From Jimgerdemannia flammicorona (Eukaryota): a stretch of DNA of 45,243 bases. The position numbers and the translations under genes were made by a program. Location: contig RBNJ01000063.1 in the NCBI GenBank assembly GCA_003990765.1, positions 1-45,243 of the forward strand, in the 5' to 3' direction. The notes under the pieces were generated by a model. It had not been told where the DNA came from, did no database searches, and was given only the letters and a program-made list of their open reading frames with translations. Below are positions 493 to 40,630 of this stretch, in pieces; the stretch's first letter is position 1; each line of letters starts with the position of its first letter.

Positions 493-2051
493 TGTTATAT
501 AGTAGTTACTGAGTTCTTCAAATATACCAGATTCTCTTCAAGGTGTATCTCTTAGATTAACTCAAGTTTGTTATAAGCAAGTTCTTATTGGAGTGTCTTC
601 CCAAGGTCTTATAGTCCTCAAACTTCTTATCTTTAAACTGTCTTGTTATCTCTTAGATTGCTTGTAAGAAAGTATATATATTGCACTAAGTAGACTAAGT
701 AGACTGACTTTATTTCAGAGGAAATAAGAGAGGTATTTATACAAAATATAATTCAATAATTGCTAAGATATAAAGCTAAATATAAATTCCAATAACTAAA
801 ATAAAATACCAGAATAGAAAAAACTGCTAAGTTCCAGAGTCAGTACTGATGATTATACAGATTCAGGATACTGATATAATTTTAGTAGTATAGGAAAATG
901 ATACTGGAATAATTCAGTATCATATCAGAATACTGGTGTTAGCATTATTCAGTATTACTAAAGGACTTTAGAGCAGAATTTTCAAGATCATAGGGGCTTC
1001 ATTCTCATCAGAGGTTATAATGTCTTCAAAGAAGATGAGGTCTGTAAATTTGTCATTAATCACATAGGTCACATGTTTCATGTATATTACATATCTCACA
1101 TATGTCACATGGGATGATGTCATTGCCGATGACATCATCACATTCAGCAGCAGTGAGAATAAGGAGGTCTGGGGCTCTCTAGTTTATGAGGTTCTCTTCC
1201 ACAAAATAGAAGACAAATGTGGGGTCTTGGAGAGGTCTAATCTGGATGCTTGGGCCTTGGAATACTGAGATCAATCCTTGTAGAAATTGGTCTGGATTGT
1301 CCTGGAGGATGGGATGCCAGAAGTCTTCTACTTCATCACTATTGAGAGTGATAGTGAACTGGGCTTCTATAGCCACCCTGGCTTCTAGTGCATTGATATG
1401 GTAGACTAATAGATATCTGAAATCTGAGACTCTAACATACTCTAAGTTGGGGATCGACCATGGTGCATGTCTGAAGATCTGATAGATCTTCTTAGCTATC
1501 CTTGTTTCATATATCTATGGGAGTAGCATCTTGTAGCTCTTGAGTGCTGGCCTGTGGGAACTCCCAGCAGAAGAGGTTTCCTATTTTGTACTCCTACCAT
1601 ATTTGGAGGCATTTGGTAGCAATGGTGATCCTTGTTTCCATTTTACAGTAGTAGAGGATATAATGATAAGAGTCACTAGTACCTAGGTTGACACTAGGAG
1701 TCCTTTTTGAGCAGATCCTCATGGCTCTTCTGATGTCTTAGAACATCTTTTCTTTAACTGAGGTACCTTGATAGTTCCTTGATCTTGAGGTTTGGTGAGC
1801 AGTAGGCATTTTATTTGTAGTAAGTCTTTGAGCTATTTTGGGATTGGTGGGTCTTGCTGGTTACTGCTACTGCAGTTCCTTGATCCTTCTTTTATATTCC
1901 TCAAGATACTCATACTGTGATCACAATGACTTACAGTTGGTCATCATTACTCATCTTATATGCTGTATGATCTTCTTGTGATCCAATCTAGTAGCTTGCA
2001 AGAAAAGGCTGTCTCCTATACTGATGTCATCATTCAGAGATCACTATTATA
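493..2051 (-). repeat. Gypsy-A 3' LTR
   Basis: Colinear with 21792-23355 over its full length; ends tgttata...tattata (decayed TG...CA); abuts the PPT. Confidence 0.92.
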
Positions 2052-2061
2052 TCTTCCTCCT
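2052..2061 (-). other. Polypurine tract of Gypsy-A
   Basis: Minus strand reads AGGAGGAAGA immediately before the 3' LTR. Confidence 0.8.
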
Positions 2062-2369
2062 AAATAAAGATCTTCTTGAATGTCCTTATTCATTGATTTA
2101 GTCCTGAAAAATTTACTGATTCTATAACCTCTGGTAAGGGGTCAAAAAGTAGTATTTATGGACTGGTGTCTTCTCTTTATATTTTGGCATGATAGTGAAG
2201 AGTCACTCCTTTTATATAGAGTAAGGGCCTGATTCTAATCTTGACCAATCAGTTGATGGTTCAAACTCCTCTGGCTTCGAAAGTCTTATGGATGAGTAGT
2301 TACTGGTGCTGTATCTCTTAGAGAATGATCCAGACAGATAGCCTGCTGGTCATGAGACATACTGTTATG

Positions 2370-3479
2370 ATTTATAGATTAGAACCTCACAGGTAGTCAT
2401 TATATTTTGCTTCTCTTATATAGGTTCATGATACTTCTTGAGTCTGTTCCTATGTACCATGATAGGTAGTATGGTTCCTGAGATTTTTCTAAGCCAGAAA
2501 GTAGTTCTCTTAATATCTTGCACATAGAAGAGTCTTTTCTATTTGGACTCCAGTTTTCACAACTATGAGGCTTTTACTATATTTTGATATAATAGGACCT
2601 TTTCTCCGATTTGGATGGGTTCTAGGGTCTTGTGATTCTTTTCTACATTCTTTCTTATCAGTACTTATAACTTGGTGATATAATCTTCAGCCTTCTTTCT
2701 GATTTGGTGTAGTCTCTGAATTTCTGCATTGACCTATCTCTAAGTTAGGTCTAGATTTATAGCTGAGATTCCATCAGAATCTTCTTCTCTGAAGAGCAGT
2801 TCTCTTGAGATAAAGTGTGTGCTCTGTGACCATATGTCTTATAGAACAGAGAGGGCAGTTGGGAGGTAGTTATCTAAATTCTCATATATCTCTGAGATCT
2901 TTGTCAGGATGTTCTTAAGAGTCTTATTGATTCTCTCTATCTGTCCATTTCCTTGAGAGTGGTATGCAGTAGTCTTGATGTGCTGAATCTTGTATTTCTG
3001 ATACATTATCTCATAGAATCCATTGACAAATTTTGTACCACAGTCTGTTGTGATTTACTTCAGTGTCTTGTAGTGGCAGATGATTTCTTAGTATAGGAAG
3101 TTGGCTATAGAGAGGATATTGGCTTCTTGTAATGCTCCTGCTTTTATCCATTTTATAAAGAGGTCTACAATAACTATAATATAGCAGTTTCTTGATAGTG
3201 TTACTGATAGTGGCCCAATGATATCCATTGCAATGTGGTGGAAGGGGATAGGCTCAATTCTTGATGACCCAGATGTCTGGTCTTGCTGATCTTATTTCTG
3301 TTTTTGGCACTTATCATACTCTTTGATATATTAGTGCAGGTCTTCTTCTATTTTGGACTACTACATAGTTCTTTTTATCTTGTTGTATATATTGGTTCCT
3401 CCTAGATATCCTTGCTTATGTACTTCCTTTATTACTTAATACTTCTTGTATTTGAGTATTATTAGCTTTTCTCCTTTTC
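2370..3479 (-). pseudogene. Gypsy-A integrase (degenerate)
   Basis: Minus-strand translation shows PFHHIAMDIIGPL, IVIVDLFIKW, TDCGTKF, TTAYHSQGNGQIERINKTL and a decayed GPF module (KLESK*KRLFYV); many premature stops. Confidence 0.88.
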
Positions 3480-3495
3480 TGAGTGTAGTATTGTC

Positions 3496-3497
<2 letters not shown>
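3480..3497. repeat. 18-bp target-site duplication, left copy (tgagtgtagtattgtcta)
   Basis: Identical to 17517-17534; directly followed by a poly(T) tract at 3498-3543. Confidence 0.95.
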
Positions 3498-3526
<29 letters not shown>

Positions 3527-3648
3527 CTTTTTCTTTTTTTCTTGGGCGTCAACAGCGATGTGACTGATTCATGCGAGCGGGGGTGGGTGACCGGGAATGG
3601 GAATGTACGTGATGATGGGCGCATCATGATTAAAAAAAATTTTGCAAG

Positions 3649-3773
3649 GGGTATGGGATGGCGTTCTAGACTTGGCAGGGGATTTTCTGAGTCAGGATTT
3701 AAGGGAGGATATCACCACCGCACGGGTACATGTCTCCCAGCTCAATCCCGACTCAAGCACTCGATCGTGGTGA
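3649..3773 (+). pseudogene. Candidate orphan terminal exon of a host gene (VWDGVLDLAGDFLSQDLREDITTARVHVSQLNPDSSTRSW*)
   Basis: CpG-intact host-like DNA; G-rich intron-like upstream stretch ending ttgcaag, then 40 open codons to TGA; no upstream exons in the window. Confidence 0.35.
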
Positions 3774-3865
3774 CACAATGCCCGAGATCTCTTTAGTGAG
3801 AGAGCCAGGAGAAATATGTTTTCGTTGATGATGATGTGACGTAGACTGCTGTAGTGATTGTTTAC

Positions 3866-3927
3866 AGTATAGTACTATGTTTTGACATAATTATGTAGTA
3901 TAGTACTATGTTTTGACATAATTATGT
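3866..3927. repeat. Perfect 31-bp tandem duplication
   Basis: agtatagtactatgttttgacataattatgt occurs at 3866-3896 and 3897-3927. Confidence 0.95.
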
Positions 3928-4295
3928 GTATATTTGTGAGATCATGTCAAAGGTGCAAAGCAGTCAGTGAGAGTGGTATGAGCTCACCTTTATAAGCAAG
4001 TAGATTACATTGTTAAGATTGGTAAACTCCTATAATATACAAGTCTCTCACTATATTTGGATGAGTATTTTGGCTTGAAACTTGAAAAACGATCTCTGTT
4101 ATACTAGAATCTAAATTTATTATAGTATACTTGGTCAAAAATTAATATACTGCTAGACAGAATTTAGTTTTTTTTTTTTTTTAAGATATCTATTATACTA
4201 AGTAATACTCTATAATAGTAAATATATAAGATTAGATAATTTAAAGTATATATAGTAAAAGAGAACTTATATATTTTATCTCTTTATATATATAG

Positions 4296-4890
4296 TTTAT
4301 TTTTATTTTTATTTTTATTTTTATTTTTATTTTTTTATTTTATAGACTCAAAGTTCTGCAGATTGTTATTAAAAGAGAATCTAGATTATATAGACCAAAA
4401 CTCTCCTCCACTACCTATTAAACACTATATTTTTATTAAATCTAGGCTAGCTATTATCTAGTAGCTTAACTATATTAAATACAGTAGAGCAAAGTTATCT
4501 ATATCTCATTTTATACACTATACTCTTCTTACTACCAGAGAGTAAACAACTATATATCTATAACTGAAGGCATATGTCTGAAACTCTAATATATGTACAA
4601 GGTTATGCCTAAGCTAATTCATATAGCTTCTGCTACTCTAAAGAGAGTGATAAGTAAAAAAAAACTCTCTTCAAAGTATAGAATAGTGAGTAGAACCTAG
4701 TTCTCTCTAATGAGATAAATAAAAAACTTATATATGAGATGAGAGAAGACCCCCAATACCTCACTACTTAAACCTGTAGACCTTAATCATATTACTATAT
4801 CAGCTTTTAGTTTCAGTTAAATACAGCCAAGATATCTAATTTGGATAATCATAGGCCCTCTGACTATCCTCAATAACTAGGGCCTAACTC
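4296..4890 (-). mobile_element. Older 5'-truncated copy of the 1.2-kb poly(A) retroelement
   Basis: 4342-4890 is colinear with ~16344-16890 but has more C>T/G>A changes; (TTTTTA)n tail at 4296-4341. Confidence 0.85.
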
Positions 4891-4894
4891 TATA

Positions 4895-5267
4895 TAGTAT
4901 TTCTAATAAATCAAAGGTCCAATTTAATTCAATTTGAATTAAATTAAAGGCCAATTTAATTTGAGGTCTAATTTGAACTCTATTTTTTAAAATTGAATAA
5001 CTCAATGTATATCTAAATTTGATAATCTTTAGCTTGTTAGATTCCTCTTATATAGGAGAATCTAATAAGCTAGAAATCATTAAATTTAGACATATATTCA
5101 TTAAGTTATTATATTTTGAAAAATAGAGTTCAAATTAGACCCTCAATTTAATTTGAATTTAATTCAATTCAAATTTGATTCAAATTAAAAAATCCCTAAT
5201 TTGATTTGATTTGAATGACTCTTAATTTGATTTAATTCAAATTGATTCAATTCATTTAAGAGCACTA
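4895..5267. mobile_element. MITE/foldback-like palindromic element
   Basis: Long imperfect inverted repeat centred near 5051 (ggtctaatttgaactctatttt ... aaaatagagttcaaattagacc; ttagattc ... gaatctaa) with many aattcaaatt-type subrepeats. Confidence 0.65.
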
Positions 5268-6183
5268 GATAGATATATCTAATGATCAATAATGAAATAA
5301 TAGATATTTTATCTATAAAAGAACAATTGAACTGATCTTGAATTACTATTGGTTATATATTAATTAAATATTTTAGAATGTAATCTAGAATGCAGAAGTA
5401 GATATGAGTAAGTCAAAAGAAGGTTCTTTATAATAGCTCTCCTTTGATTGTAGTAATATTAAGCCACATATGAGACAAAGATTAGAAAATCATTACTTAT
5501 CTTAATAAGTCTTAACAAGGATATGAACCAGGGCCAGACTCAACTGAGATCAAAGGTCAGATATGCTGGATAAAAGTTGGAGAATATATATGCCTGATAA
5601 TTAGAAATATAATTCTATTTTTAAATAATACTTAAATAATTATTAAAATTAAAAAATACTAACAAATACTTAAGATCAAATGAGATAAAAATTTTCAATC
5701 CAGATAAATCATAAGGTACTTTTTAATAAACTTTATAAATAATCTTCAATATTTAGAATAATAATATTTAAATATATAAGATTATTAAAAGGACATCTCC
5801 AGGTATATCTTAGTTTATATCCAAGTACTATTTGATCTATTATAACCTTCAGAATTACATAACTAAACGTATATTGAGCCTCTTGAGATCCCCTTGAGCG
5901 GCATTTCAATTTTGGCCAGGGAGCGTGAAGCTCAGTCATTTGTCATCAATGACTTGAATTATTAAGAGTGCATCATGTGTATAGGTATAAAAAAAACACG
6001 CTCTCCTCGCACACAGGAGGCCCGCTTGCATTTCTAATATACACACGGGGCCATATTATATACTCACAGAACCATATTGTTTCATCATTCATCTCACCCA
6101 CATCACATAATGTCAACATTTTCCATACAAGGGAATAATGGAGAATCCATCCACAACCCCGCCATCCCTCACCTCCTACCCTC

Positions 6184-7511
6184 TCAGTTCTTCTTCAAGG
6201 GCGCGAACTGCATCGAATCCTCGTAGTTCTTGGGGTCAATTTCGCGGAACCACGGCAGAATCGGCGGCAGGTTGTCCGGCTGGAGGTCGGGGTAGTGATC
6301 GCGGATCGCCGCTTGGACAGTGCGGTAAAGGACCTACAGCGTTGTGTTTGGAGGGGACCAACGAGGAACGTATGCGTAAGTGTATGTTTGGACAACGAGT
6401 GAAACGGAACGAGGAAGTGTGCCTAAAAACATAAAACGATCCATGACCCTTCCAAACAAAATGACCCCACGCGGTGACAACCCCTCGGAAAACCCACCTG
6501 GCTCCCCGCCGGCGCTAAATGCAGCCCGTCGCTCAAGAAATCGCTCAGCGGACGCCCACCGTTCACCCCCTTAACCCTCTCTCCAAACAAGCTCATTTGC
6601 GGCCCAACCTTGGTCACGACCGCCTTCCTTTCCTCCTCCTCAGCATCATACTCCCGGTCGACCTCTTTCATAATTGCAGCCCATACATCGACAACAGGCA
6701 CGCCGAGCCTAGCGCCAGTCTCCTTCACGGCACGGACGTACTCAAACGTGACGCGGGACAGACGATCGGGTTCCCTGCCTTCGCGGCGGCATCGCTCGGC
6801 CCATGTGTCCTCGTCTAGGACTGGCGGCGTGATGAAGAGGAGGCGCGTGTCCGGGTTGTAGTAGGGCGAGATGGGCGACTGAGTGAGCGAAGCGAGGATC
6901 TCGAGGTTGGAGACGTAGCGCGAGAGGGGGACGTGCTGGGAGGAGCCAGGGAGAGCCGCGTCATTGGCGCCGAAGAACACGGTTAGAAGGAGAATGTTGG
7001 AGCAAGTGGGGGCCGTGGTTGTTGGGAGGAGTTGTTTGAGGATGGGGATCGCCCAGTTCGTGTTGTAGCCTGGTGGGGCGGAGAAATGAACGGGTGGGTG
7101 AGGTATGCAACCACACTACGCGAAACCAGTGTATGAAGAGAATGGTTCTTCCACGTACCCGAAAACCCGCGGTTCATAACGTCGACCTTCCTTTGATAAT
7201 CCTAGCGCACACAAAAAAAAAAATCGGGTCCACAATGAGCGTCGCGTCGTCCCCGACACCAAACTCTAGAAAACCATCACTTCCTCCCGTACCTCCCATA
7301 ATCTCCAACACTCACATTAGCCAGCGAAGCTCCCCATCCAAAGTTCGGGTCGAAGCTGAGCTAATTCCCACGCCGAAAAGCAACTGTCAGTAACGCGGAG
7401 CGAGGCGCGCGGTCACAAAGAACAAAAAATAATGGTCGTCAAGTACACCTGGGTGATGGAGTCGCCAAACAGGACGATTTGGTTGTAGACGTGGTTCATC
7501 GTGATGCGCAT
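6184..7511 (-). CDS. IAH1: SGNH/GDSL hydrolase, isoamyl-acetate-hydrolysing esterase IAH1-like (5 exons)
   Basis: Spliced model with GT-AG introns gives IVLFGDSITQ, VMNRGFSGYNT, FFGANDAA and SDGLHL (all four SGNH blocks), ending ...QFAPLKKN*. Confidence 0.9.
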
Positions 7512-8467
7512 CTTTTGGTACTGAACCAGGAAACTCTCCAATTATACCAATTATAAATAATTTTGATCACGTGTTTTCAGATCTCTGAATCAGATCGTGA
7601 GGAATTCCTTCTGAAACATGGTTTGAGATATTGAGTTTTTCACAACCCAATACCTTTTATAAAGGGCTAGTCCTAGAGTAATTTTTTAGTGCTTTGAAGA
7701 GTTGAATTTAAAATTTAACCAAGGAACATTTATACATGATTTCAAAAGCTATCTAGTAGTATTATTGTTCGAGGGTTGAGAGATTGTGTGAAGCACATCA
7801 TCAAACAAGCAAAGAAGTATTATGCCAAACAAACAAAAGAAATGAAGACCACAAGATCAATAGGTATCATTAGTCTGGCTTTCTGTTTTAGGTATCAATT
7901 TTGTATTTTTATTTCACAACCAGATACGAGATAGAAATGGTGGATTGGAACGGGAGAGAAAACGAATTGAAAAGAATATAAGGCAAAATGAGCATGAAAA
8001 GGATCAAACGAGATGTGGCGACTTCGATAAGAGACAGTACACACGAGAAAAACAAGTGATTGATATGATACATAGCTCAAAGAACGTCAGTGCGTCCTCA
8101 AGCCACCAAATCGACAACAGCAGGTCCGAGTTGATGCCAGAAGTCACGAGTGATTTCACGTCAAGACCGTCGTGAGCTGACAGAGATCCGTGAGCAGCTT
8201 CGTCGGCAGACCGCAGAGAGGAAGAGGAAGAGAAAAGGAGATCCAGTAGTCAAGAAAAGGACGAATAGAGAGCAGCATGATGGAAGGAAAGAATCCGAGA
8301 AGACTCCTAACTTTCTTTAGATCCAGCAAGCCCATTCTACCGCGGAATTCTATCTACTAATTATCAAAGTAGCTAAGAAAAAGGAAATCCTATATACACT
8401 TTTACATTCCAAAATACCCCATCACCCATATCCACGTCTACAGAGCCACAACATTCCGCCTCCTATC

Positions 8468-10422
8468 CTATCGCCTTCCCGGGCTCGGCGTCCTAGGCCC
8501 ACTCCTCCGATCCCTCACGGGGCTCGCCGACCTCCTCCCGACATACGACGGACCGATGAGCCTGTTGGAGCGTGGCGGGGGGCTCAAGGACCGACGCGTG
8601 GGCCTATGACATACGCGAGCACAGAAGTTTCGAGAACACGTCAATTCGAATCCCACACACACCGCAAACCAAAACCCGCGCATCCCCAAAAGACTCACCT
8701 ATACGACCTCCCTGGCGACGTCTGCCTCTGCTCCAGATATCTCAGCACGGGCGACCTGCTGTTCCTTCTATACCCCGGCGTGATCACGTCTCTAGCGCGA
8801 TCGTACCCCCTAGGCGAGCTCCTCTCCCTGTACGGCGGGTACCTATCATGCTGCGGCGGGAGCGGGGGCACGCGACGATCGTAAGGGTCGCGATCGAAGG
8901 GGGACGATCCGTTCCGCGACGGGGGGTAATAACCCGCGCCTGGACGATCGTAGGATGTTGACGACGGAGGGTCGCGGTACGAGGACGGTGGGGGCGGTGG
9001 CGCGTAGGGGTCGCGGTCCGAGTACGGAGGACGGTCGTAAGAACGATCGTATGTGCTGCGAGGAACGGGCGGGAGCGGAGGTAGAGCGTAATCGCGACGG
9101 TATTCATCTCCGGGGCGGGAGTAGCGGTCTGAAGAGGGAATTGAGAGTGGTGGGGCGCGGTCGTAGGAGCGATCGTATGTACGGTCGTAGGCGCGATCGT
9201 AAGCGCGATCATAGGAGCGATCGTAAGAGCGGTCGTAGGAGCGATCGAGGGGGGGCGGGGGTGGAAGCGAAGGGGGACCATAGCGAGAGCCAGAGAGACG
9301 GTCGTAGGTGGCACGAGAAGTGTAGGCGCCCGAGATGGGACGGTCGTAGGTTGGAGTTGGTGGAGGACGGGAAGAGCGAGAAGAGTCGTGGCTGGTGGTG
9401 TCGAGATCAAGTGCATACATTGGGTACGGATGAGAAGGGATGGAATGGATTAGTTTGAGCCCCGGTTTGGTTTCATCGACGTCGTAAGAGTCACGTCGGA
9501 GAGCAGAGATTCGCTGAGCCATTCCAATCCACATCAAGCGGTATTAGGCCCAAGAAGTAATAGTCCATTTCACAAAGAATCAATCTGCGCGCCGTAATTT
9601 TCCACCTCCTCGCTGCATCATAAAGCACAAAAACCACAACCTCTTACCTAGTGCACTCCCTTGCAAAATGCCCGAGCCCACCGCATTTGAAGCACGCGCC
9701 GTCGCCACTCAGAGACCCGCGCTGCCTCGGCTTCCCACCGATCTCCGACAAAGCCAGCTCGACGCGAATGTGCTGGCCTAGGAAGTCGGTGCCGTTGAAC
9801 TGCTGGATGGCATCGTCACAGCTACGTCGATCTTCGTATTCCTTTGTGATGCAAACGTGAGGAGACAAGGAGGAGCAAAGAAGAGGCAGGCCAAAGGGAA
9901 AAGACATAATGAAAAAAAAAGAGGGCGAAGAGAGGTAGAAATGTGAAATGTGCAAAGGGGAGAGAGAGAGAGAGAGCCCATGATTGTCGAAGGGGAAAAG
10001 AGCAAAGGAATTTTGTGAGTGGGTCTGCTTCCTGCATTGATTGAGATGGTTGCGGGTTTAGCTTGAATCCGACGGAGAGAGAGCGGATACCAAAAAGAGC
10101 CCGGCTGTGAGCAGGCAAGTGATTGAAGAGCGCTTCCGTAGTCGCCAGGCTAACGAACCAGACGCGGTCACGGTCTCCAAAATCAGAGACTTCCTGCCTA
10201 GTGCGTAGCTCACCGTACTCAAGCAAGACGGATCCTGGAAAAATCCTCTTCCGTGACCAGAATCGGCTCAGATGACTCAGCTATGTCAGGAACACTTACG
10301 ACGAACCCGAACCCGTTCTTGGTCTCAATGTTGACAATCATACCGCACTTCCCAAAGTAGTCCTTGTAGTCCTCAGGCCTGGCGCGCTCGGGAACGTTGC
10401 CAATGTAGATCTTGTGGGGCAT
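8468..10422 (-). CDS. SR-type RNA-binding/splicing protein: RRM + CCHC zinc knuckle + R/D/S/P-rich tail (SRSF7/RSZ-like architecture; 4 exons)
   Basis: MPHKIYIGNV (RNP2), KNGFGFV|EYE (RNP1 split by an intron), CFKCGGLGHFAREC. Exons 10422-10300, 9841-9648, 9391-8699 and a final exon ending at 8468; GT-AG boundaries. Confidence 0.88.
9160..9248 (-). repeat. Coding 12-bp tandem repeat (YDRx)n
   Basis: Encodes DRSYDRSYDRSYDRAYDRAYDRTYDRSYDRA. Confidence 0.85.
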
Positions 10423-10732
10423 GATGGAACTTTTTGTCGTGTTGGTTGGAGCTGCCTGTATCCGCAAGAGCGAGCGAGGGAGTTCACAAGGGGATGCCGG
10501 CGGGTTGGAGGTTTGACGGAGGGGTGTTTGCTGACAATCTAGCATAGGATGTCACAATGCCGCGGAAGGGGAGCGAGCGGATGGGTCATTTTTTTCTGTT
10601 GTCAACACATCTAACGTCACAGACACATGACTGGTGAAGTCACATGGGCTGCCAGTCTTTGGTTCGGCTCTTTGGTTCGGCCCTTCTTTAGCCGTTCTAC
10701 CCCATTCCTTTCCTTTCCTCTCCCAACATACC
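10423..10732. promoter_or_regulatory. Short divergent (bidirectional) promoter/5'UTR region
   Basis: 310 bp between head-to-head start codons, with pyrimidine-rich tracts upstream of each ATG on its own strand. Confidence 0.55.
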
Positions 10733-11842
10733 ATGATTGCACGCTCTGCCCCGAGAGTCCCTCAGATCCTGCTTCACCTGGCAGGCATGGCTTCCTTCTC
10801 TTACTCCTTCTGGACCCTCGCCCACATGACTAACAAGGCCTCGGCCTCGTTTGGCTGGCACTTCCAGGTGAGCAACACTGGCTCGACTTGTGCGGCATCT
10901 GCTCCGTTACCAACTACGGCGCGTTATCTTATGAACTTTGGCGTCGTTCTGTGAACGTATGCACCACGGCTCTCTCGCTCAACTGTGCTCACCTCTTACT
11001 CCCCAATAGCACCTCACCATCCTCGGCCTCCTTTTCTCCACCGTAACGTTCATTATCCTGATTATACGGGACATTATGCCAGACTCAATGATAGGTGAGG
11101 ACAATATATAATTGAATTTTTATCGCCTCATATAGTAGCACTTCCTATCAGATGAAGAACTAATTCGCACATCGACAAACGATCCAGGTGCCCACGAATT
11201 CTTCACGGCCATCACCGTCCCGGTATGTCCAAACCACTGACCCGCTCCCATTCGCTCCTTCTCGAATATTCCCTTCAAAGAGCTCATTTTACCCACGTAC
11301 TAACCATCTTCCCTTTCGAAAATTCCCAGCTCGAGGGCCTCATCTCAATCCTTTATTGGTCTCTCCTTTACTACGACGAGCGCCTCCTCAAGCACCCCGA
11401 CGTCGCCGCCCTCCCCATCATTGTCGACCTCTCCTTCCACCTCTTCCCCGCCGTTCTTCTCTGGGCCGATTTCCTCTTTTTCTCCCGTCAGTTCGCCCGC
11501 TCCGCCCGCCACATCACCTACATCTTCGTATTCGGCGCCGCCTACTGCGTCTGGACTCACCTCTGCTTCCAACAGAATGGCTTTTGGCCCTACCCCATCC
11601 TCGAAAAGCTGCCCACGCCGTACAGGATCGCGTTTTTTGTTGCTTGCGCGGCGTTCTGTACTCTCGTATATGAGTTTGGTGAGTTAAGGGGGGGCTGCAG
11701 TGGGTGGAATAGAATCCCGGTCAAACCGGCCATCATTTTGCTTGATTTTCTTACCAAAACCACGCTGATTTTGTCATCAGGCGCCCGTCTTCACCGGTTC
11801 TTCAATAAACCTCTGGAGACCTTGACCAAAAAGATCCAGTAG
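10733..11842 (+). CDS. FAR-17a/AIG1-like multi-pass membrane protein (5 exons)
   Basis: FGWHFQ|HLTILGL, LEGLISILYW, DLSFHLFPAVLLWADF and NGFWPYPIL motifs; the Thr and His positions typical of the AIG1/ADTRP family are present; GT-AG introns. Confidence 0.88.
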
Positions 11843-12381
11843 TAGGTATAAAACAAGACCGAGTTCGTTTGCATATAGCATTTCATTTCGAGTAATACAA
11901 CCACATACAGATGTTTGTCTGGACATGATAGATTTTTATTTTCTGGCTTATTGTTACGATTAAGAATATAACCTATCCCGATTGTGTTCGTTGGGCCGAT
12001 TTCATTTGTGCGGAACGCTTCCACTTTGGCAATTGAAAGTACATAAATATATACATTAATTAATGCGACCAAACTCAGAAATTTGATCTGAGATGGGACT
12101 CCAGGGACAAAGTCGCTGACATCACAGCAACCATGTGACCAAAGCTGCCCCAACCCACCAACCCTCCTCCTCTCCCTCATCTCTCCCCAATTCCCCTCCC
12201 CCTCATTATTCCACGCGGACACACATTCGGCCCAATACCCCACTCGCCGATCGATTGCCTCGCCCGGACGCCCTGTCATTCGCTGGTTGTAAATATTTGT
12301 CTTACAAACCTCCCACTCCATTCCTTCCCCCTTTCTCCCTCCCCCCCTTCCCCTCCCCCACATCCCACTCTTTCTTAATAT

Positions 12382-15300
12382 ATGTATCAGCGCAGAGGCT
12401 GGCGATGGCGACCGGCAGCCTTGTTAGGCGTCGCGGCGTTGTGTGTGGTATGCGTCGCGCCGATGCCAGCGAGGGGCATGCCCAACGAGCGGAGGCTATG
12501 GCTGAGGTGAGCGAGGGCTTTGATTTCTTTGACACCCAAAGTAGATCTTAGGGTTTGAGAGGTACTTGCTTCGTTAACTTACGCTATGTTTTGTGTCTCC
12601 GATGTCTTTGTAGGGATGCCGCCAAGGTACGAAACGCGTAAAACCCCTATTTACTATTTTAAGGCAGATTCGCATGTGTTTCGTCGCTAACCTCAAAGCA
12701 CATGCTGCCCAGGAAATGTTCTATCACGGCTGGAACAACTACATGAAGTACGCCTTCCCGAAGGACGAGGTATGGAAGTCTAACAGGCTTCTAGGGCGGG
12801 CATTGTGGTTGGACCTGATCGGATATCCTCAAATCAAATGCCATTTTTGACACCTCGTATTGCGCCTTCAGCTGAACCCGATCCTTTGCAACGGTCGTGG
12901 GAGCGATAAGAAGAACCCGTAAGTTCACCTTCCCATCCGTGCCTTATATGAATTTTGTCGTGGATCGTCTTTATCTCATATCCCACGCCCCTTTCTCCTC
13001 GATATTCGATATCCTCGTGAACGCAGGTCAAACATCAACATCAACGATGCCCTCGGCGACTACTCTCTGACCCTCGTCGACACGCTCGACACGCTCGCGG
13101 TTGGTATCGGTTCTCTTTTTCGACATTTCCCTTGTAATGTGCCGCCCTGGCTACCACGCTTATTGACCCTTGCTCGTTTACATTATCAAACTCCACCCAG
13201 ATCCTCGGCGATCAGGCCGAGTTCGAGCGCGCCGTACGTTTGACGATTGCCACCGTCCATTTTGACCTCGACAGCCGCGTACAGGTCTTTGAGGCCAATA
13301 TCCGCATGTTGGGCGGGCTGGTGCGTTGCTGGGGCGAGGATCCCTTTTTTTTTTTTTTTTTTTTTCATAATGTTTTCTGTGACACGAATGCTGACCATAT
13401 CGTCTCGTACCTCATAGCTCTCGGCCCATCTACTCGCTACCGATCGCACGCTCGGGTACTTCATCAAAGACTACAACGGCGAACTCTTGGACATGGCGCA
13501 GGACCTCGCGAAGAGGCTGATGCCGGCGTTCCAGTTGTCTAGGACGGGGATACCGTATCCGAGGGTGCGTGTGGGACTCTTTGGCCTGGCTTTGGATGGT
13601 GTGTGATGTGAGGTCGAAGTTTTAGATTCGTGTGATGACTGATGTTTATTTTGTGTCGGGTTCGGCCTGGTATGGGTGTGTAGGTGAATTTGCGGTACGG
13701 CGTCCCTAAGACGGAGACGGTGGAGACATGCGCGGCAGGGGCGGGGAGCTTGATTCTCGAGTTCGGCGTCCTTAGCCGGTTGACAAATACCAGCATATAC
13801 GAGGTACACTTTTTTTTTTAAAAAAAAAAGTTTCGATATGCAATATCTCCCATCCTCATTCGTCATCCATCTCCCGCAGGACGCAGCCAAACGATCCCTC
13901 CACGCAATCTGGGACCGGCGCTCGGCCCTTGGGTTGGTGGGCAACGTGATCAACCTGCAGACAGGCCAGTGGATCCACACGGCGTCGTCAACAGGTGCCG
14001 GCATCGACTCCTTCTTTGAGTACATGCTCAAGGCCTACGTTCTATTCGGCGAGGATGAGTATCTTGACATGTTCCGCGAAGCCTACGGCTCCATCATGAA
14101 GTACATCCGCGACCCAACGGGATACCTCTACCGAAACGTCCACATGACCAACGGTGGGCTCATGAGCAGCTGGGTCGATAGCTTGAGTGCATATTTTGTG
14201 GGGTTGCAGGTTGGTTTTAGGTGGGGACCGGGGGTGGGGTGGAGCCACGAGGTGCGAGCTTGGGTGGTCGTGGAAAGTGACTGTTATATGGACTGGATGC
14301 CTAATGACTTAACGGTCATGGCGTGAAGGTTCGTTGCGCAGTACCGGGTTTTGATCCCAGCACGTGAAGAGAAATGATGAATATCTGTTTGGTCCGTGTT
14401 TCTGAGGCAGATTAGACCCTGTCACATGAATACACCATATTCTAAACTTTCTGACTCTTTGGCATGCCATTTTCCACGAACCGCCATTTTCCACGAATCC
14501 AAGAATTTTGTCATTATTATCGCACTGAAAAAGGATCCTGACCATCACGAATTCGTTTCAGGTCCTCGCCGGTGATCTAGACTCGGCCATCAAATCGCAC
14601 CTCTTCTACTACAATATTTGGCGCAAGTATCGGTCGCTTCCAGAGCGGTTTGACTTCTATCTTCGCAGTGTCAACATCGCCACTTACCCGCTCCGCCCGG
14701 AGTTCGTCGAGTCCACCTATTTCCTCTACCGCGCCACCCGTGACCCATTCTATCTGCGCGTCGGCGAGATGATCCTCGAGGACCTGAATAATACCACGCG
14801 CGTCGCGTGCGGGTTCGCCACCGTCGGTGATGTCATCGGGAGGAAGCTCGAAGATAGGATGGAAAGCTTTGCATTGAGCGAAACATTCAAGTATTTGTTT
14901 TTGCTATTTGATGTGGGTGAGTATGAGGAGAGGAACGGGGATGAAATGTATGGTGGTGAAGCTGTTGTGAAGTGATGGGCGGCAGAATGTGTATTAGTTT
15001 GGTTTTATTGGTTTTGTTATGGTGTTGTGCGTTCTAAATCAATTCACTTACTTCGCGACCTCATGGACCATTGCAGATCATCCTGTCAACACCTTGGATT
15101 CTAATTTCGTCTTCACTACTGGTATGTCTGATTTGCGTAAGTGTTGCAATACTCTTATGTGGTTCGTTTCACTCATACATCACCTCAAATTATTGATTGA
15201 TTCCAGAGGGCCATATATTGCCACTTCCACGGCAATACCTGCATTCGAAGCGACATCGACCGGTGCCGTTCTACTCTGATGACAACGACGCACTCACCGA

Positions 15301-15867
15301 GATCTCTGCCTTCCTCCCCTCCCCCAACTCCTGCCCCGTCTACCAACCCGGTCAAACACCCTCCCGGCACCACCACTACCACCGGCGTGCGCACCCCCAA
15401 AAACTCTCCCACACAAACATAGGCCTCACCCCCCTGACTGCCTTTTCCCGCCCTACCTACCCCTCCTCCTCCCCTTATACCGCCACCACAAGTACCACCT
15501 TCTCCCACCACGCCCACTCGGCCATCCTCTCCCGCCCCGACGCCGACTTCGCCCGCGAGCTCGTCGGCCTCGACGACGACCACATCCCGCCCCTAGACCC
15601 GCGTGGGTACTGCGAGGCCCCCAACCTCCTTCCGCAAACTGTCGAGCTCACTTTCGGGTACCCCGCCGGCACCACCAGCAACGGTAACAACCAGGCGGGA
15701 CAGCAAGGACACGCGCAACAGCAAGCTGCCGATACTCAGGACGTCGGCTGGTCGCCCACCGTCGTTAAGTTCCTCGGCGGGCTCGTCGCCACTACCCTGG
15801 CAGGGCTCAAGGTTGAGCTAACTAAGCGCTCGTCCAGGCAGGGCGCTGGGTACGACGTCACCAAAGG
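12382..15867 (+). CDS. MNL1: EDEM/Mnl1-like GH47 alpha-1,2-mannosidase; multi-exon, apparently 3'-truncated
   Basis: Signal-peptide-like start ([21 protein letters not shown]), [62 protein letters not shown]. The last exon ends at a donor (AAAG|gttagt) with no convincing downstream exon. Confidence 0.88.
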
Positions 15868-16135
15868 TTAGTAGCGACGCGCGGCGGTGCGCGGGCGTGC
15901 GGAGGGTGGTGAGAGGCAATTGTGGCGTGGGATACAGGTGGGTTCAACTTGTGGGGATATTCCGTGATGTCCCTGTTTGCTTACCTTAGGTTGGTGTTGG
16001 TAGATGGGTTTGTTTCTTTTGTTGGATGCGCCCAAGGGTATTGTCGCCTTTTTATTGTGGGCGCGTGCACCTTGGTTAAAATTCGGTAGTTAATATAATA
16101 GTCATTATCGCGGTACATGCTTGCCGAATGCCTCA

Positions 16136-16251
16136 TTTTCGTTTCTTTTTTCTTTTCTTTTTTTTTTTTCCCCCTATACATACATACATACATACATACA
16201 TACTACATTCATACATACATACATACATACATACATACATACATACATACA

Positions 16252-16289
<38 letters not shown>

Positions 16290-16297
16290 CTTTTTTT

Positions 16298-16330
<33 letters not shown>

Positions 16331-16343
16331 TTTTTTTTATTTT
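16136..16343. repeat. T-rich tract + (TACA)n microsatellite + long poly(T) tail
   Basis: T/C tract ~16136-16170, (CATA)n 16174-16251, poly(T) with rare interruptions 16254-16343. Confidence 0.95.
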
Positions 16344-17516
16344 AATGGACTCATGTTCCATGGAATTTTATTGGAAGGGAACCTAGACTATATAGGCCAA
16401 AACTCTCCCCCACCACCCACCAAGCACTGCCCCCTCATTAATCTAGGCTAGCTATTGTCCAGCAGCTCAACCATGCCAGGTGCAGCAGGGCCTATGTTGG
16501 CTCACACCTCATTCTGCGCACCATGCTCTCTCTACCACCAGGGGAAATCCAACCATATACTAATGACCAAAAGTGCACGCCTGAGAACCCAATATATATA
16601 TAAGGCTATGCCTGAGCCAAATAGAATAGCCTCTGCTATCCTAAAGAGAATGACAGGCAAAGAAAAACCCTCATCAAAGTACAACATGATGGGTAGGGCC
16701 TGGTTCTCCCAGTCAAGGTGAGTAAAGGACTTATATGTGAGGCAGGAGGAAGCCCCTAATACCCCACTACTCAAGCCTGCAAGCCTCAATCACATTGCTA
16801 TATCAGCTTCCAGTTCTAGTTGAGTATAGCCAAGATGCCTGAAATGGGTAGCCTCAGGCCCCCCGACCCCCCCTGATGACTGGGGCCTAACCCCACTGAC
16901 TGCTAAAAGAAGCTGAGAGTAACACCTACTACCTAACTACACCACACCAATCAAAAGGCCCCACCAAAGCAGTACCTGCCCCAGCCCCAATGACCGCTCC
17001 CAGCCTGGCACCTGACTGGTTCACCATTAACATTCTTCCTCCTATCTGTGATAGCCATCTCCTCTCCCATCCTGACAATACTCAAAAAGCAGTCACCTAT
17101 GCTAGAACTGTGCTCACTGGGAAGCTTGCCAAAGCCAGAGGGCCCCACCACAGGCACCGAAGACCTGCAGGTAACCTATACTGAGCACTTGATGCCCAAG
17201 GTTGGCCGACTCTCTATTAGTCCAAGATATACTGAGACAATACCTTGTTGACAATGGCAAAAGGAAGAAGGTACCACACCAAAATGGGTATACCCCAGAT
17301 ACAGCTGAAGGCACCAGAATCTGCAAAAAAGTGGAGGAAGCACCAATCTGATACTGATAAAGGGGCAACTCATCACTATTGCCCTCCTCTCACCATGCCC
17401 CTGCAGGCACAGCAAACCAACCTGAGGTAGAGAGGGTAATATTAGGGGAAAGAGGACTCAGAAGGTCATCTACCAAACCTTGTGACCAGTAAGATAGCAA
17501 AGAAAGGAGTTGGCCT
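16254..17516 (-). mobile_element. ~1.2-kb poly(A)-tailed retroelement, probably non-autonomous
   Basis: Poly(A) tail on the minus strand, second copy at 4296-4890, no recognisable RT/EN motifs; terminal motifs resemble the LINE ends; 5' end abuts the TSD. Confidence 0.75.
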
Positions 17517-17534
17517 TGAGTGTAGTATTGTCTA
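17517..17534. repeat. 18-bp target-site duplication, right copy
   Basis: tgagtgtagtattgtcta, identical to 3480-3497. Confidence 0.95.
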
Positions 17535-19100
17535 GTTCAAACTATTTCTAAGTCTGGTTGATGATAGTGATTGTCCAGGGTTTGAGATGGTTGGATATCT
17601 TCTACTGCCCAAGGTAGCTAATTAATCTATAGTATAACTCCTTATTCATATTGAATAATCTTGATGGAGGTATTTCAGGGTGTCCTTGAGAGTGCATCAG
17701 TATTGGTGTTGGTTCTTCCTGAGCAGTGCTTAACAGTATAGTCATACTCTTGCAGCCTGTAGATCTATATGGTATATATTCCTTTAGAGTTCAGAGTGTG
17801 GAATAGCCAGGCAAGAGCAGAATGATCTGTTTGAATAGTGAAGTATTTCTTAGCTAGATAGTAGTGGAACTTGTCTACTGCCCAAACTACTGCTAAGTAT
17901 TTGAGCTTGTATGTATGACTCATAGTTCTGTTCTGCTCCATGGGTACCTCAGTTTGTATAGGAGATGATATATTCATATCTATCTTTCTTCTGAGTCAGA
18001 ACTGATCTAAGTCCTATAGTGCTTGCATCTGTCTACAGGATGAATTCTAGATTCCAATCTGGTCTTCTGAGGATAGGTGCTTGGGTCAACCTGGTCTTGA
18101 GTTTATTGAAGATTTCTTAGCATTCCTTAGTCCATTTGAATTTAGTTTTCTTCTTCAGTAGCTTGTAAATAGGTACTGTAATATTGGAGTATCTTTTGAT
18201 GAATCTTCTATAGTAGCTGGCTAGTCCAAGAAAGGTGTGGACTTCTGTAGTTGTTCTGGGTCTTGGGTAGGCTGCAACAGCCTCAATCTTTATGGGGTCT
18301 GTGTGGATTCTGGTCTGGTTGATGAGGTGTCCTAGGTAGGCAATTTCTTGAGCTACAAACTTACATTTCTTGGGCTTGATGTAGAGGCCATACTCCTTGA
18401 GCTTCTTGAGGGCTAGCTATATATGGTTGATATATTCCTGCACAGTATTGCTGAAGATGATTATATCATCAATATAGACAAAGAGCCATTTTCCAATCTT
18501 GTTGCTGAAGACTCTATTCATTATTAACTAAAAACTTGCTAGGGTATTGCATATTTCAAATGGTATTTACAGGTAGATATAGGTGGCATCAGGTGTGATG
18601 AAGGCTGATTTCTCACTAGCATCTTGAGTGAGACCAATCTGATGGAAGTCTGAGAACAGATCTAAGGTGGTGTAGTATTTGGCTTCACTTCCAAGAGTAG
18701 TAAGGATTTCTTAAATATTTGACAAGGGCTGTCTATCCTTCTTAGTGATTGCATTGAGCTTCCTGTAGTCAATGTAGAGTCTTGGTGCAAACTCTCTAGG
18801 CTTGCTTTCTTTCTTTAAGGTAAGAATAATGGGTGAAGCCCAGGGACTAATAGCTTGCTTAATAATTCTAGCTTCTTCTATTTTCTTGAGTTCTGCTCAC
18901 AGCCATTCTCTGTAGGCAGGTAGTATAGGTCTGGCCTTCTGATAGATGGGCTTGGTATCACTAGTATCAACTTCATGGTAGTACTTGGGTTCTTGATTGT
19001 AGATATCCCTGAAGTCTGTAGCAAGTACTCCTTCATTCTGGTGCAGAATCTTAAGAAGTTGTTCTTCCAGGGGAAAGTTTTCTCCAATGATATATGTGTG
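17535..19100 (-). pseudogene. Gypsy-A reverse transcriptase and RNase H (degenerate)
   Basis: SPWASPII, RLYIDYRKLNAIT, FVYIDDIIIFS, FLGLASYYRRFI, TDASTIGLRSVL, TDHSALAWL, DALSR. Confidence 0.92.
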
Positions 19101-19165
19101 CTTATTCTGGTCTCTGTCTTTCTTATGCTCAAGTTTGGTAATCTTGGTAGTGGCATAGGCTCCTC

Positions 19166-19577
19166 TTCCAGTAGGTTCAAAGTCTTGTTCTTCTCTCTTG
19201 GTCTTAATGAGTTTGATGGCTTCAGTGATCTTGGGCTTCTTGATTTCATAGATCAGCATCTGGCCAATCCTGTTATACTTCTTGAATTCAAATGGAGTGG
19301 TGGGGTTGTGATTCCAGACTATGAGAAAGATCTCACCAGTGTAATCAGAGTCAATTACTCCTCTTTCAACTGAGATTTCACTTTTGGCCAGACTGCTCCT
19401 GGTCTTGATAATTCTGATATGATTCTCTGATAGCTTGACTCCAATTCCAGTGCCAAGTAGGATGGTGGTCTGTGGTTTAAGAGTAGTATCTTTAATGCTG
19501 GCAAGGTCTATTCCTATGGCTCCTTCAGTCTTGTATTCTGGGATCTTGGCTTCAGGGTAAAACTTCTTGACCTTGAG
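19166..19577 (-). pseudogene. Gypsy-A dUTPase domain (between PR and RT)
   Basis: KVKKFYPEAKIPEYKTEGAIGIDL, RSSLA, GVIDSDYTGEI, NRIGQMLI and REEQDFEPTG match the five trimeric dUTPase motifs. Confidence 0.88.
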
Positions 19578-19943
19578 AGTGATGTCTAATTCTTATTCCT
19601 CCTCATCATCACTATCAGCTTGAAGCTCAGGGAGCTGGTTATCTTCTTTGACTTTCCTTTTTACTTCAGCAGCTTCTTGCTCATGTTTCTGTTGGCAGAT
19701 TTTCCTAACTTCACTGATATAGGACCAGCAGTCATTCAGGTATTCAGAGCAGTATATCCTAGTACTATAGGGGCATCTTTCTTGAGAGGCATAGCTATTG
19801 ATGATCTTGTTATACTACTGCTCATCTGTGAGCTTGAGTGTCTTGTTCTTGTTCTTATTCACCAAGTGCATAAAGACTTCTGTGTCTTCTTTATCTCCTT
19901 TCTCTATGTCTGGTAGGACTTCTTTATGGACATTGATAGAGAC

Positions 19944-21735
19944 TCATACCTTTCTTCCTCTATAGTTGATCTGTATCTTCTGGGCATTGAGGTCAATGAT
20001 GGCCTTGGTCTTGTGAAGCCCTTGGTTGTCAATGAGGATATTATAGTTAGTGATACTTGTAACAATCATATCTACTGAGATGGTAAGTCCTCCTATCTTA
20101 ATAGAAACTTCTTGGATTTCGTCAAGAGGGGTAGCTTGTGTACCATCTGCTGTAACATATACTATCTTGGTAGACTCTTCAATGTCCCAGCCTAGGTGAT
20201 CAATTGTCTTCTTACTTATGAGACATTCTTTAGCACTAGTATCAATGATGGCATCAAAGATACAATCTTCAATCTGATATAAAGTATAGGCTGATATCTT
20301 ATGCTGGTCTTCAGATTCTTTGCCTGAGTCTTCTGATTCTTCCTGTATATTGTGAGCTTCTACAATCTTGTACTCTTGATTCTTGACAGTAGTTACAAGT
20401 TCTACTCTCAACTGCTGTCTGAAGGCAGGGACTTCAGCTAGCTGTTCAAAAGTAGCATTGACCTTTTGTTTCTTAAGATCCTTGTAGATATTATACTAGT
20501 AGATCTTGGTCTTATACAGCTTCTGTTCCTTCTTGCTTTCACTTTCTCCTAAGACTAGAGTAGTGCCTTCAATGATTTGGCAGATAGCTTCATCTAACTC
20601 TATGTCTTGATCAATCTCTTTGAGTTGAGTCTTGCTTTGAATAGTAATAGCTGGAGTCTTCTTTGGTCTTCCAACTGGCTTATTGTTGCTCTTCTTGTCA
20701 TAGGGCTTGAACTGGGTTCTAGTACCTTCAGTAGCAGGGTAGAATTCAAGCTCCTTATAGTATTCTTCATCATCAGTATCACCAATCTCCTTGATGACTA
20801 CTGTATTGATTTGTTCTCTAGTTCTACTAGCATTGCTTAGTTGGACTTTGTGTCTTATTTCAGTTATGCAATTCTTTACATAGTGGTCTTCTTCTCTACA
20901 TCTGAAGCATGTGATATTGCATTCTTCTATAGCAGCTGCAAATCTCTGCACTGGTCTTCTGTTGGCACTTCAGACTTCTCTAACAACATTACCAAGGTGT
21001 GCAGTCATCTTAATGAACTACTTGGCGAGTTCCTCTACTGGGTCAACTTTGACTATCTTGAGGATAGGTGGGGTTGGTTGTCTGTTTACAACTATAGCAG
21101 GTATAATACTAGTTGGCTTTGATGGCTCTATCTTGATACCAGTTATTTTCTCTATTAAGTATTCGGCAGGGTGTCTGGTAGTCCAATATCTCTATACAAA
21201 GATCACTTTCTGATCAAGGGTCAGTGCAGCTGGGGTAGACTGGATTGCTAGAGTAATTTCAGGGTAAACTCCTTTGAGGAAGATTTAATCCACTATTTGT
21301 TCCTTGAGGGCATCATCATAGCTAGCCAAGACAATCTAGTGGCAGATTCAGATATAGAATGAGTTGAGATCTTCACTGAGTCCCTGGCAGATAGTATTGA
21401 GTTAATCCTTGAGAGCTTGCTTGATCTCTTCAGTATAGTATGTTATTCTGAGGAAGGCCTTCATATTGGCAAGTTTGGCTACACTATTATCAGTAATAGT
21501 AGCTGCATTGAACTTATCTCTAGTAGGTCCTCTGAGGCTGACTGGTAGAAGGGTCAATTGTGCATCCACACCAAGGGCTCATATGGTAGCGAATTATTCA
21601 AAGTCTTCAATAAAGGTCAGGATTGACTCTTCAGTAGTATATCCATAGAATGTAAGGGAATGTATTTCCATCTTGTCTTGAATTCTTGCAGGGGTGACTC
21701 TTATAGTCAGGGTAGTTGTTATAGTGGTTGTTCAT
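19944..21735 (-). pseudogene. Gypsy-A gag (zinc knuckle) and aspartic protease
   Basis: CFRCREEDHYVKNC knuckle; AIIDTSAKECLIS (decayed DTG) protease motif. Confidence 0.85.
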
Positions 21736-21770
21736 TTTTCAGCTTGAAAGTGAGGGATTCATCTTGAATT

Positions 21771-21788
21771 ACCAGCCAATGGGTACCA
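21771..21788 (-). other. Primer-binding site of Gypsy-A
   Basis: TGGTACCCATTGGCTGGT begins 3 nt inside the 5' LTR; cognate tRNA not identified. Confidence 0.75.
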
Positions 21789-21791
21789 AGT

Positions 21792-40400: not shown

Positions 40401-40630
40401 CTAATGGGTTGGTGGCATGGGTGAGAACTGCAGAGTGATCAGCAGTATTGTTTGATAGAGAAAATATGTAGACAGAGTGGGAGGAGAGTTGGAGTCATGG
40501 AAGATAGGGTGATTTTTAAGTATAAAAGAGTAGAGGAAGGGGGGGGAATTCCCCTATAGAGATTGAGTAGTGGGAGGAGATAATGTAAATTTATGTATAG
40601 ACTGGTAATAAATGACAAAGTCCAAGTAAC

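What the first reader, a model, noticed from the sequence alone, without database searches (positions are those of the whole stretch)
3480..17534. 14-kb, four-gene host block inserted inside a Gypsy pol gene with TPRT hallmarks (candidate giant 3' transduction)
Seen: the same 18-mer lies at 3480-3497 and 17517-17534. Removing the 14,019 bp between them plus one copy rejoins the Gypsy-A frame between RNase H and integrase. On the minus strand the insert reads: 1.2-kb retroelement, its poly(A), ~12.7 kb of genomic DNA with four host genes, then a second poly(A) touching the TSD. Known: a long TSD plus poly(A) is the signature of L1-type target-primed reverse transcription, and described L1 3' transductions are usually much shorter. 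Inference: a short retroelement moved a multi-gene chromosome segment with its promoters, which now also sits between two LTRs and could be deleted or circularised by LTR-LTR recombination.
Basis: partly seen in the sequence, partly recalled or inferred. Interest (0 to 1): 0.92.

Follow-up and report, generated by a model that had tools for sequence, protein, structure and literature searches.

The report
Four-gene block inside fungal retrotransposon insertion
In a root fungus, a 12.7-kb piece of ordinary chromosome (three whole genes and most of a fourth, introns still in place) sits inside a jumping-gene insertion that split an older retrotransposon, most likely copied in as DNA rather than through RNA, although the junctions still need confirming on reads.

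Summary
The anatomy is real in the assembly. An exact, unique 18-mer at 3480-3497 and 17517-17534 brackets 14,019 bp inside the integrase ORF of one Ty3/Gypsy element of Jimgerdemannia flammicorona. The insert reads: T tract, 12.7-kb host block, second T tract, 1.2-kb tailed element X. Two other tailed inserts in the window have 16-bp duplications, so target-primed reverse transcription made this site.

The block holds intact GDSL, SR-like and FAR-17a genes and an EDEM gene cut in an intron; RNA contigs splice that exon to an exon absent from the window. Against a plain 3' transduction, five RNA-verified introns on the supposed transcript strand are retained, and two native mRNA ends are passed.

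Best reading (0.4): X inserted normally, then the block was copied as DNA into its tail. Rivals: unspliced 14-kb read-through RNA (0.3), misassembly (0.13), retroelement-primed DNA capture (0.12). No genome or DNA run was available, so donor, copy number and junction reads are untested. X is unclassified.

The parts
493..2051 (-). 3' LTR of Gypsy-A, polypurine tract on its inner side
   Evidence: 87% identical to 21792-23355; ends and PPT
2052..3479 (-). Gypsy-A integrase (H2C2 and core) and downstream part, decayed
   Evidence: Pfam Integrase_H2C2 and rve with stops read as X
3480..3497 (.). Target-site duplication, left copy (18 bp)
3498..3541 (-). Distal poly(A) tract: 29 pure bases next to the duplication, then a broken A-rich stretch that may be native to the block
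3542..3900 (.). Left end of the host block: unique, CpG-containing DNA of unknown role
   Evidence: 16 CpG in 359 bp; no Pfam or Rfam match; only low-depth contig cover in one of four RNA runs
4296..4890 (-). X': older, more decayed 3' fragment of the X family with a degenerate tail
   Evidence: 70% identity to X, mostly G/C to A/T changes
4921..5186 (.). Foldback (MITE-like) palindrome in AT-rich decayed DNA
   Evidence: self-inverted match, 80% over 272 bp
6184..7499 (-). GDSL lipase/esterase gene, four introns retained; mRNA contigs reach about 6000
   Evidence: Pfam Lipase_GDSL_2; joints in RNA contigs; open spliced frame of about 288 aa by best fit
8468..10422 (-). SR-like RNA-binding protein gene (RRM, zinc knuckle, RD/RS-rich tail), three introns retained; mRNA contig reaches about 8039
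   Evidence: Pfam RRM_1 and zf-CCHC; 381-aa open spliced frame; intron near 8603-8698 skipped in an X2 contig, the other two predicted from sequence
10733..11842 (+). FAR-17a/AIG1-like membrane protein gene, four introns
   Evidence: Pfam PF04750; joints; open frame of about 225 aa
12405..15866 (+). EDEM/Mnl1-like GH47 mannosidase gene, 5' part only; the PA-domain exons are missing
   Evidence: matches P0001 residues 10-594 of 816; P0001 has a PA domain at 688-771; open frame of 654 aa from 12713; RNA loose ends at 15866 and 15870
15867..16175 (+). Stump of the EDEM intron, with an alternative donor near 15937
   Evidence: the same 13-nt loose end behind 15866 and 15937 in X2; that 13-mer is not in the window
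16176..16253 (.). Four-base microsatellite, 19 copies
16254..16343 (-). 90-nt poly(A) tail of X
16344..17516 (-). Element X, 1,173 bp, CpG-depleted, AATAAA about 25 nt before the tail, class unknown
   Evidence: 6 CpG; no Pfam match; only two short unnamed ORF calls from metagenome contigs match it
17517..17534 (.). Target-site duplication, right copy
17535..21791 (-). Gypsy-A gag, protease, dUTPase, RT, RNase H and the first codons of the integrase (ATG at 17649)
21792..23355 (-). 5' LTR of Gypsy-A, primer-binding-site-like sequence on its inner side

Best explanation
Two steps. (1) Shown by anatomy: a LINE-type enzyme inserted the 1.2-kb tailed element X into the integrase of a dead Gypsy element and made an 18-bp target duplication. 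(2) Inferred: the long poly(A:T) tail of that insertion later broke or stalled a fork, and repair synthesis switched template to a gene-rich locus, copied 12.7 kb of DNA and returned to the other half of the tail. The switch could have used T-tract microhomology at both ends, or, at the right end, homology with another X copy in the EDEM intron. This leaves duplication, tail, block, tail, X, duplication, with all introns and upstream regions kept and EDEM cut in an intron. Whether the donor survived (copy) or was lost (move) is unknown.
For: Deleting only the block (3542-16253) leaves an ordinary 5'-truncated tailed insertion like the two others in the window (16-bp duplications at 34464/40705 and 42272/42334). 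Both ends of the block fall in T tracts. Five introns on the strand that would have been the RNA are spliced in RNA contigs yet present here: 6331-6496, 7068-7158, 7200-7315, 7360-7449 and 8602-8698; two more are predicted. The GDSL and SR-like contigs end inside the block. X has lost most CpG (observed/expected 0.09) while the gene region has 1.03; at none of the 31 listed variant sites covered by both X1 and X2 do both differ from the window (40 rows shown, 27 not shown). That fits an older X and a recent or protected block. Gap-filling capture inside elements is reported as the main origin of single-copy Pack-TIRs in animals (PMC8277862, passages).
Against: It needs two events where transduction needs one. 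No insertion of X alone at this site has been seen, and no donor locus (no genome). T-tract homology at the ends is also expected under the rivals. Unspliced stretches do occur in the RNA contigs (9812-10328; 14182-14588 at depth 15 against 180 for the mRNA contig), so intron retention is not an absolute bar to an RNA template. The decay contrast also fits a dead donor X carried along in a transcript.
Confidence: 0.4

Rival explanations
1. Giant 3' transduction: a copy of X in the EDEM intron was transcribed through 12.7 kb of flanking DNA; the unspliced RNA was tailed, or primed at a native A-rich stretch, and reverse-transcribed into the Gypsy in one event, truncating within X.
For: One event explains everything: X at the 5' end, both tails in the same direction, a pure 29-base tail touching the duplication, and a duplication of the same size class as the LINE insertions nearby. 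EDEM is cut where a donor X would sit. An LTR element in tomato moved more than 20 kb of the SUN locus (PMC6762207, passages).
Against: At least five sense-strand introns unspliced and two native mRNA ends passed, besides the tails of X and X'. The 60 bases upstream of the left tail are GC-rich with no AATAAA; the two native ends lack AATAAA as well, so that test is weak. X shows no coding signal and no known domain. A review gives human L1 3' transductions as up to 1.6 kb (PMC8232201, passages).
Confidence: 0.3
2. Assembly artefact: a true insertion of X alone in the Gypsy and a separate gene locus were joined through their T tracts.
For: Both ends of the block are low-complexity tracts; the right one is about 170 nt of microsatellite plus T. 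The genomes of this genus came from field-collected fruiting bodies and are over 77% repeats (PMC10386755, passages); that the assembly is short-read is my recollection. The genes show no decay and lie within RNA-level variation. The one cluster that holds this EDEM exon lists a single accession from this contig's assembly, so a donor copy is not in evidence.
Against: It needs two mis-joins that leave and re-enter the same tail. The left tract is only 44 nt with unique flanks, and the same contig crosses a 73-base A run with the matching 16-bp duplication on both sides; the inference that short tracts were read through is mine.
Confidence: 0.13
3. Retroelement-primed DNA capture: the enzyme nicked the Gypsy and laid down a short T tail from some polyadenylated RNA; that end annealed to an A-rich stretch of the donor, host synthesis copied 14 kb of DNA, stopped inside a donor-resident X and closed on the second nick.
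For: One event, introns kept, pure tail at the duplication. L1 cDNA invading distant DNA is proposed for cancer rearrangements (PMC7058536, passages), and a roughly 30-kb distant insertion mediated by L1 pieces is described (PMC10415145, section 17).
Against: Those rearrangements lacked target-site duplications, whereas this one has a clean 18-mer; the end inside a co-oriented tailed element would be coincidence.
Confidence: 0.12
4. The genes are at their ancestral place between halves of two independent Gypsy copies, and the 18-mer is ordinary homology between them.
For: The LTRs differ by 13%. No intact Gypsy-A relative was found to check against.
Against: The halves meet in frame with exactly 18 shared bases and no other overlap; 190 of 196 LTR differences are transitions; a 4-bp match flanks the outer LTR ends (weak in AT-rich DNA); EDEM is cut and its next exon is not in the 29 kb to the right.
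Confidence: 0.03

Closest known systems
Partnered 3' transduction by human L1 (PMC8232201 passages; PMC10415145 passages; PMC7058536 passages)
   Same: Truncated element at the 5' end, flanking unique DNA behind it, terminal poly(A), target-site duplication.
   Different: 12.7 kb against up to 1.6 kb in the review read; sense-strand introns and two native mRNA ends are kept; the partner element is unclassified; no source locus was seen.
Gap-filling capture in single-copy Pack-TIRs (PMC8277862, passages)
   Same: Host DNA lodged inside an existing element without transposition, with microhomology at the breakpoints.
   Different: There the recipients are DNA transposons of animals and microhomology is 1-36 bp; here the recipient would be the tail of a non-LTR insertion in a fungus and the filler is several genes.
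Rider-mediated duplication of the tomato SUN locus (PMC6762207 passages; PMC12449061 passages)
   Same: A retroelement-linked move of a large host segment (more than 20 kb) to a new site.
   Different: Rider is a Copia LTR element; here the hallmarks are a poly(A) tail and an 18-bp duplication, and the LTR element is only the target.
Class 1 templated sequence insertion polymorphisms (PMC5110952, parts 1-2 of 4)
   Same: Sequence from a distant locus with a target duplication and a poly(A) tract.
   Different: Class 1 has AATAAA shortly before the tail and a TTTT/A site; neither is present at the left junction.
L1-mediated complex insertion of about 30 kb in cell line H2009 (PMC10415145, section 17)
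   Same: Large distant DNA segment bounded by retroelement pieces.
   Different: Somatic, human, and without target-site duplication.

Membership tests
Non-LTR (target-primed) insertion | Target-site duplication of the size that the local LINEs make | tested here: met
   18 bp exact; 16 bp at two other tailed inserts in the window
Non-LTR (target-primed) insertion | Poly(A) tail touching one copy of the duplication | tested here: met
   29 T from 3498
Non-LTR (target-primed) insertion | Target is single-copy and continuous in the empty element | tested here: inconclusive
   Frame continuous across the site; spacing 229 nt against 213 nt in another Gypsy family of the window, which is too loose to exclude a native repeat; no intact relative found
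Non-LTR (target-primed) insertion | L1-type TTTT/A nick site | tested here: not met
   The site is not T-rich; it shares six bases with the start of the LINE2 duplication but not with the third one
Non-LTR (target-primed) insertion | X is a recognisable LINE, SINE or Penelope-like element | tested here: inconclusive
   No Pfam or Rfam match, no similarity to the window's LINE ORFs, only a short 3' motif shared with them
3' transduction | Partner element 5' of the unique DNA, same strand, own tail kept | tested here: met
   X at 16344-17516 with its tail at 16254-16343
3' transduction | Passage through a processed transcript: sense-strand introns removed, end at the next polyadenylation site | tested here: not met
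   Five RNA-verified minus-strand introns retained; two native mRNA ends inside the block
3' transduction | Source element at the donor locus, flank in register | not testable with these tools
   No genome held; metagenome scan with the EDEM exon found nothing
Gap-filling / template-switch capture | Filler is unprocessed DNA | tested here: met
   Introns on both strands, intergenic DNA and old repeats all present
Gap-filling / template-switch capture | Homology between recipient and filler at both breakpoints | tested here: inconclusive
   Both ends are T tracts, but the donor flanks are unknown
Gap-filling / template-switch capture | Recipient element existed before the capture | not testable with these tools
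   Needs an X-only allele; X is far more CpG-depleted than the block, which is compatible but not proof

The most novel reading that the evidence does not exclude
A fungal non-LTR reverse transcriptase copied a single 14-kb unspliced RNA, running through two working polyadenylation sites, and so moved three complete intron-bearing genes with their promoters in one step; retroposition in this lineage could then duplicate whole gene neighbourhoods and leave no loss of introns to betray it.
Probability: 0.3. Interest if true: 0.8.

Novelty: new variant of a known kind. Interest (0 to 1): 0.55.

Why it matters
Under either leading mechanism, tailed retroelements in this repeat-rich mycorrhizal fungus can carry or receive multi-gene segments with introns and promoters intact, which is a route to gene relocation that would look like an ordinary segmental duplication. 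The locus also offers a test of the repeat-restricted C-to-T decay in this genome: genes with normal CpG content sit inside an element that has almost none. It is one case in one unverified assembly, and large retroelement-linked moves are known in tomato and in human cancer cells.

Tried and rejected
Whole-genome search: no genome is held. Sequencing runs: five listed, none recorded as DNA; four of the five were laid, on 3542-16130 only, so neither junction was examined and no contig ran over either end. Donor or full-length EDEM: the search among longer proteins gave 2 hits of 1393 candidates, both Apophysomyces; the search for the missing C-terminal part gave 0 of 355 candidates, which is weak because it needs shared five-residue words; the metagenome scan with the last exon confirmed 0 of 432 pattern matches. 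Gene models on this contig and on a 23,691-bp contig both end at the same intron, so they do not locate the next exon. Intact Gypsy-A relatives: one viral-contig scan used the wrong frame and returned an unrelated locus (L001 has no DNA match to the window); the corrected scan found none. Identity of X: no Pfam match in six frames, no Rfam match in 3400-17700, two short unnamed ORF calls from a search with one of its six frames, one weak locus with no DNA match to the window, no codon periodicity in X versus X' transversions (9/7/7), no stable fold at its 3' end (z +1.9). A circular permutation, with the missing EDEM exon at 3542-4300, was considered and rejected. No separate duplication around X alone was found. 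Two RNA haplotypes at GDSL in X1 (depths about 260 and 330-360) could be alleles or two copies and were not used. Ten literature searches listed no fungal multi-gene non-LTR transduction; the library is open-access only, I saw listings for most hits, and I read no supplements.
Full report
Organism and data. A protein read from the last EDEM exon is 100% identical to a Jimgerdemannia flammicorona record, and a member of its cluster (RUS35514.1) lies on a contig of 45,243 bp, the length of the window. Everything below rests on the contig, on RNA-type contigs of four runs (X1 and X2 are RNA by the tool's guess) and on protein searches.

The target. Two LTRs (493-2051 and 21792-23355) bound a Ty3/Gypsy element on the minus strand, with a primer-site-like sequence and a polypurine tract in the expected places and a 4-bp match at the outer ends. 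Its gag, protease, dUTPase, RT and RNase H lie right of the insert and its integrase left of it. The LTRs are 87% identical, with 190 transitions and 6 transversions, and CpG is almost absent, so the element is dead and hypermutated. Without the insert it is 8.8 kb.

The duplication. The 18-mer is exact and occurs only at 3480-3497 and 17517-17534; chance expectation is about 3e-6. An integrase frame opens at an ATG at 17649, which overlaps the stop of the RNase H frame, runs 44 codons through one copy and continues on the left flank into the H2C2 domain. Only 146 of 1553 18-column windows are identical between the LTRs, so the duplication probably postdates most of their decay. Two more tailed inserts in the window carry 16-bp duplications: a full LINE at 34480-40704 and a 46-bp stub at 42288-42333. 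Target-primed reverse transcription at this site is therefore well supported.

The cargo. Between the two T tracts lie 12,712 bp: unique DNA with CpG (3542-3900), decayed repeats including an older piece of X and a foldback (4150-5870), and four genes. GDSL and an SR-like gene are on the minus strand, FAR-17a and EDEM on the plus strand. Best-fit splicing gives open frames of about 288, 381, 225 and at least 654 codons (boundaries fitted near the RNA joints, not all exact). EDEM aligns to residues 10-594 of an 816-aa Apophysomyces homologue whose PA domain lies at 688-771. In run X2 the exon ending at 15866 continues into 13 bases found nowhere in the window, and run X3 has a loose end at 15870 (24 further loose ends were not shown, so X1 is unknown there). 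An intact EDEM thus exists in the sources of those runs, and the right edge of the block is a break inside an intron. The genes are not decayed: CpG observed/expected is 1.03, and at 0 of 31 listed sites covered by both X1 and X2 do both differ from the window (40 of 67 rows shown).

RNA or DNA. If one RNA carried the insert it ran on the minus strand from X to 3542. On that strand RNA contigs skip four GDSL introns and one SR-like intron, all still present in the contig, and GDSL and SR-like contigs stop near 6000 and 8039. A mature transcript is excluded; only an unspliced RNA that passed both ends would serve. Some unspliced stretches do appear among the contigs, so this is a strong argument, not a proof. 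The left tail is 29 pure bases followed by a broken A-rich stretch, with GC-rich sequence and no AATAAA upstream; the native ends lack AATAAA too. Removing only the block leaves duplication, tail, X, duplication, the same plan as the two other inserts. I therefore rank a two-step history first (0.4): ordinary insertion of X, then repair synthesis that copied the block into its tail. The first step is read from the sequence; the second is inference from the retained introns and the T tracts at both ends. The single read-through event stays close behind (0.3) because it is more economical and explains why X heads the insert.

Artefact. Both ends of the block are low-complexity, the genome is highly repetitive and came from field material (PMC10386755, passages), and no second EDEM copy from this assembly appeared. 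Against this, two mis-joins would have to leave and re-enter one tail, and the contig crosses a 73-base run elsewhere with the right duplication on both sides. I give 0.13. That the contig runs through both ends of the block may also mean there is no identical donor in the sequenced DNA, that is, a move rather than a copy; this is inference about assembler behaviour and was not tested.

Element X. It has a tail, an AATAAA, a second copy in the block and relatives in two metagenome contigs, but no domain, no RNA family and no coding periodicity. It shares a seven-base motif just before the tail with three of the four LINE ends in the window, a weak hint that the same enzyme mobilises it. Its class is open.

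Comparison. The layout works like a partnered L1 3' transduction, but the processed-transcript test fails and the source was not seen, so I do not file it as one. Human L1 transductions are given as up to 1.6 kb in the review read (PMC8232201). Larger retroelement-linked moves are known: more than 20 kb at tomato SUN by an LTR element (PMC6762207) and about 30 kb in a cancer line, without target duplication (PMC10415145). Capture by gap filling is described for DNA transposons (PMC8277862). My ten searches listed no fungal case with a long duplication, two tails and several intron-bearing genes; I read passages or single sections of nine papers and no supplements.

Verdict. A real-looking and unusual structure, a new variant of known retroelement-linked gene movement, with mechanism undecided between DNA capture and unspliced read-through, on one unverified contig. 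Interest 0.55.

Noticed in passing
window 34464-40720: A full-length LINE with a 73-base tail and a 16-bp duplication splits a second Gypsy element in the region between RNase H and integrase, within about ten codons of the homologous place where Gypsy-A is split; the two duplications begin with the same six bases after the first.
   Followed up: partly
window 42272-42349: A 46-bp LINE 3' stub with a 21-base tail and a perfect 16-bp duplication.
   Followed up: partly
window 17640-17650: The Gypsy-A integrase frame opens at an ATG overlapping the stop of the RNase H frame, in a dUTPase-bearing element.
   Followed up: partly
window 493-2051 and 21792-23355: LTR pair with 190 transitions against 6 transversions and 2 CpG in 3.1 kb; the depletion stops sharply at gene borders.
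   Followed up: partly
window 9812-10328: The first intron of the SR-like gene appears unspliced in contigs of two runs, as expected of regulated retention in SR genes (that expectation is recalled); DNA in the runs is not excluded.
   Followed up: no
window 15937: A second splice donor in the EDEM intron joins the same downstream exon in run X2.
   Followed up: no
window 11329-13563: One X1 contig runs from FAR-17a through the spacer into EDEM, so the two transcripts may overlap or read through.
   Followed up: no
window 4921-5186 and 3866-3932: A foldback element abuts the 5' end of X', and a 31-bp tandem duplication lies at the edge of the CpG-containing stretch.
   Followed up: no
window 24846-30728: A second full-length LINE with endonuclease and RT domains, about 70% identical to the first and facing the other way, with a degenerate tail and no duplication found.
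   Followed up: partly
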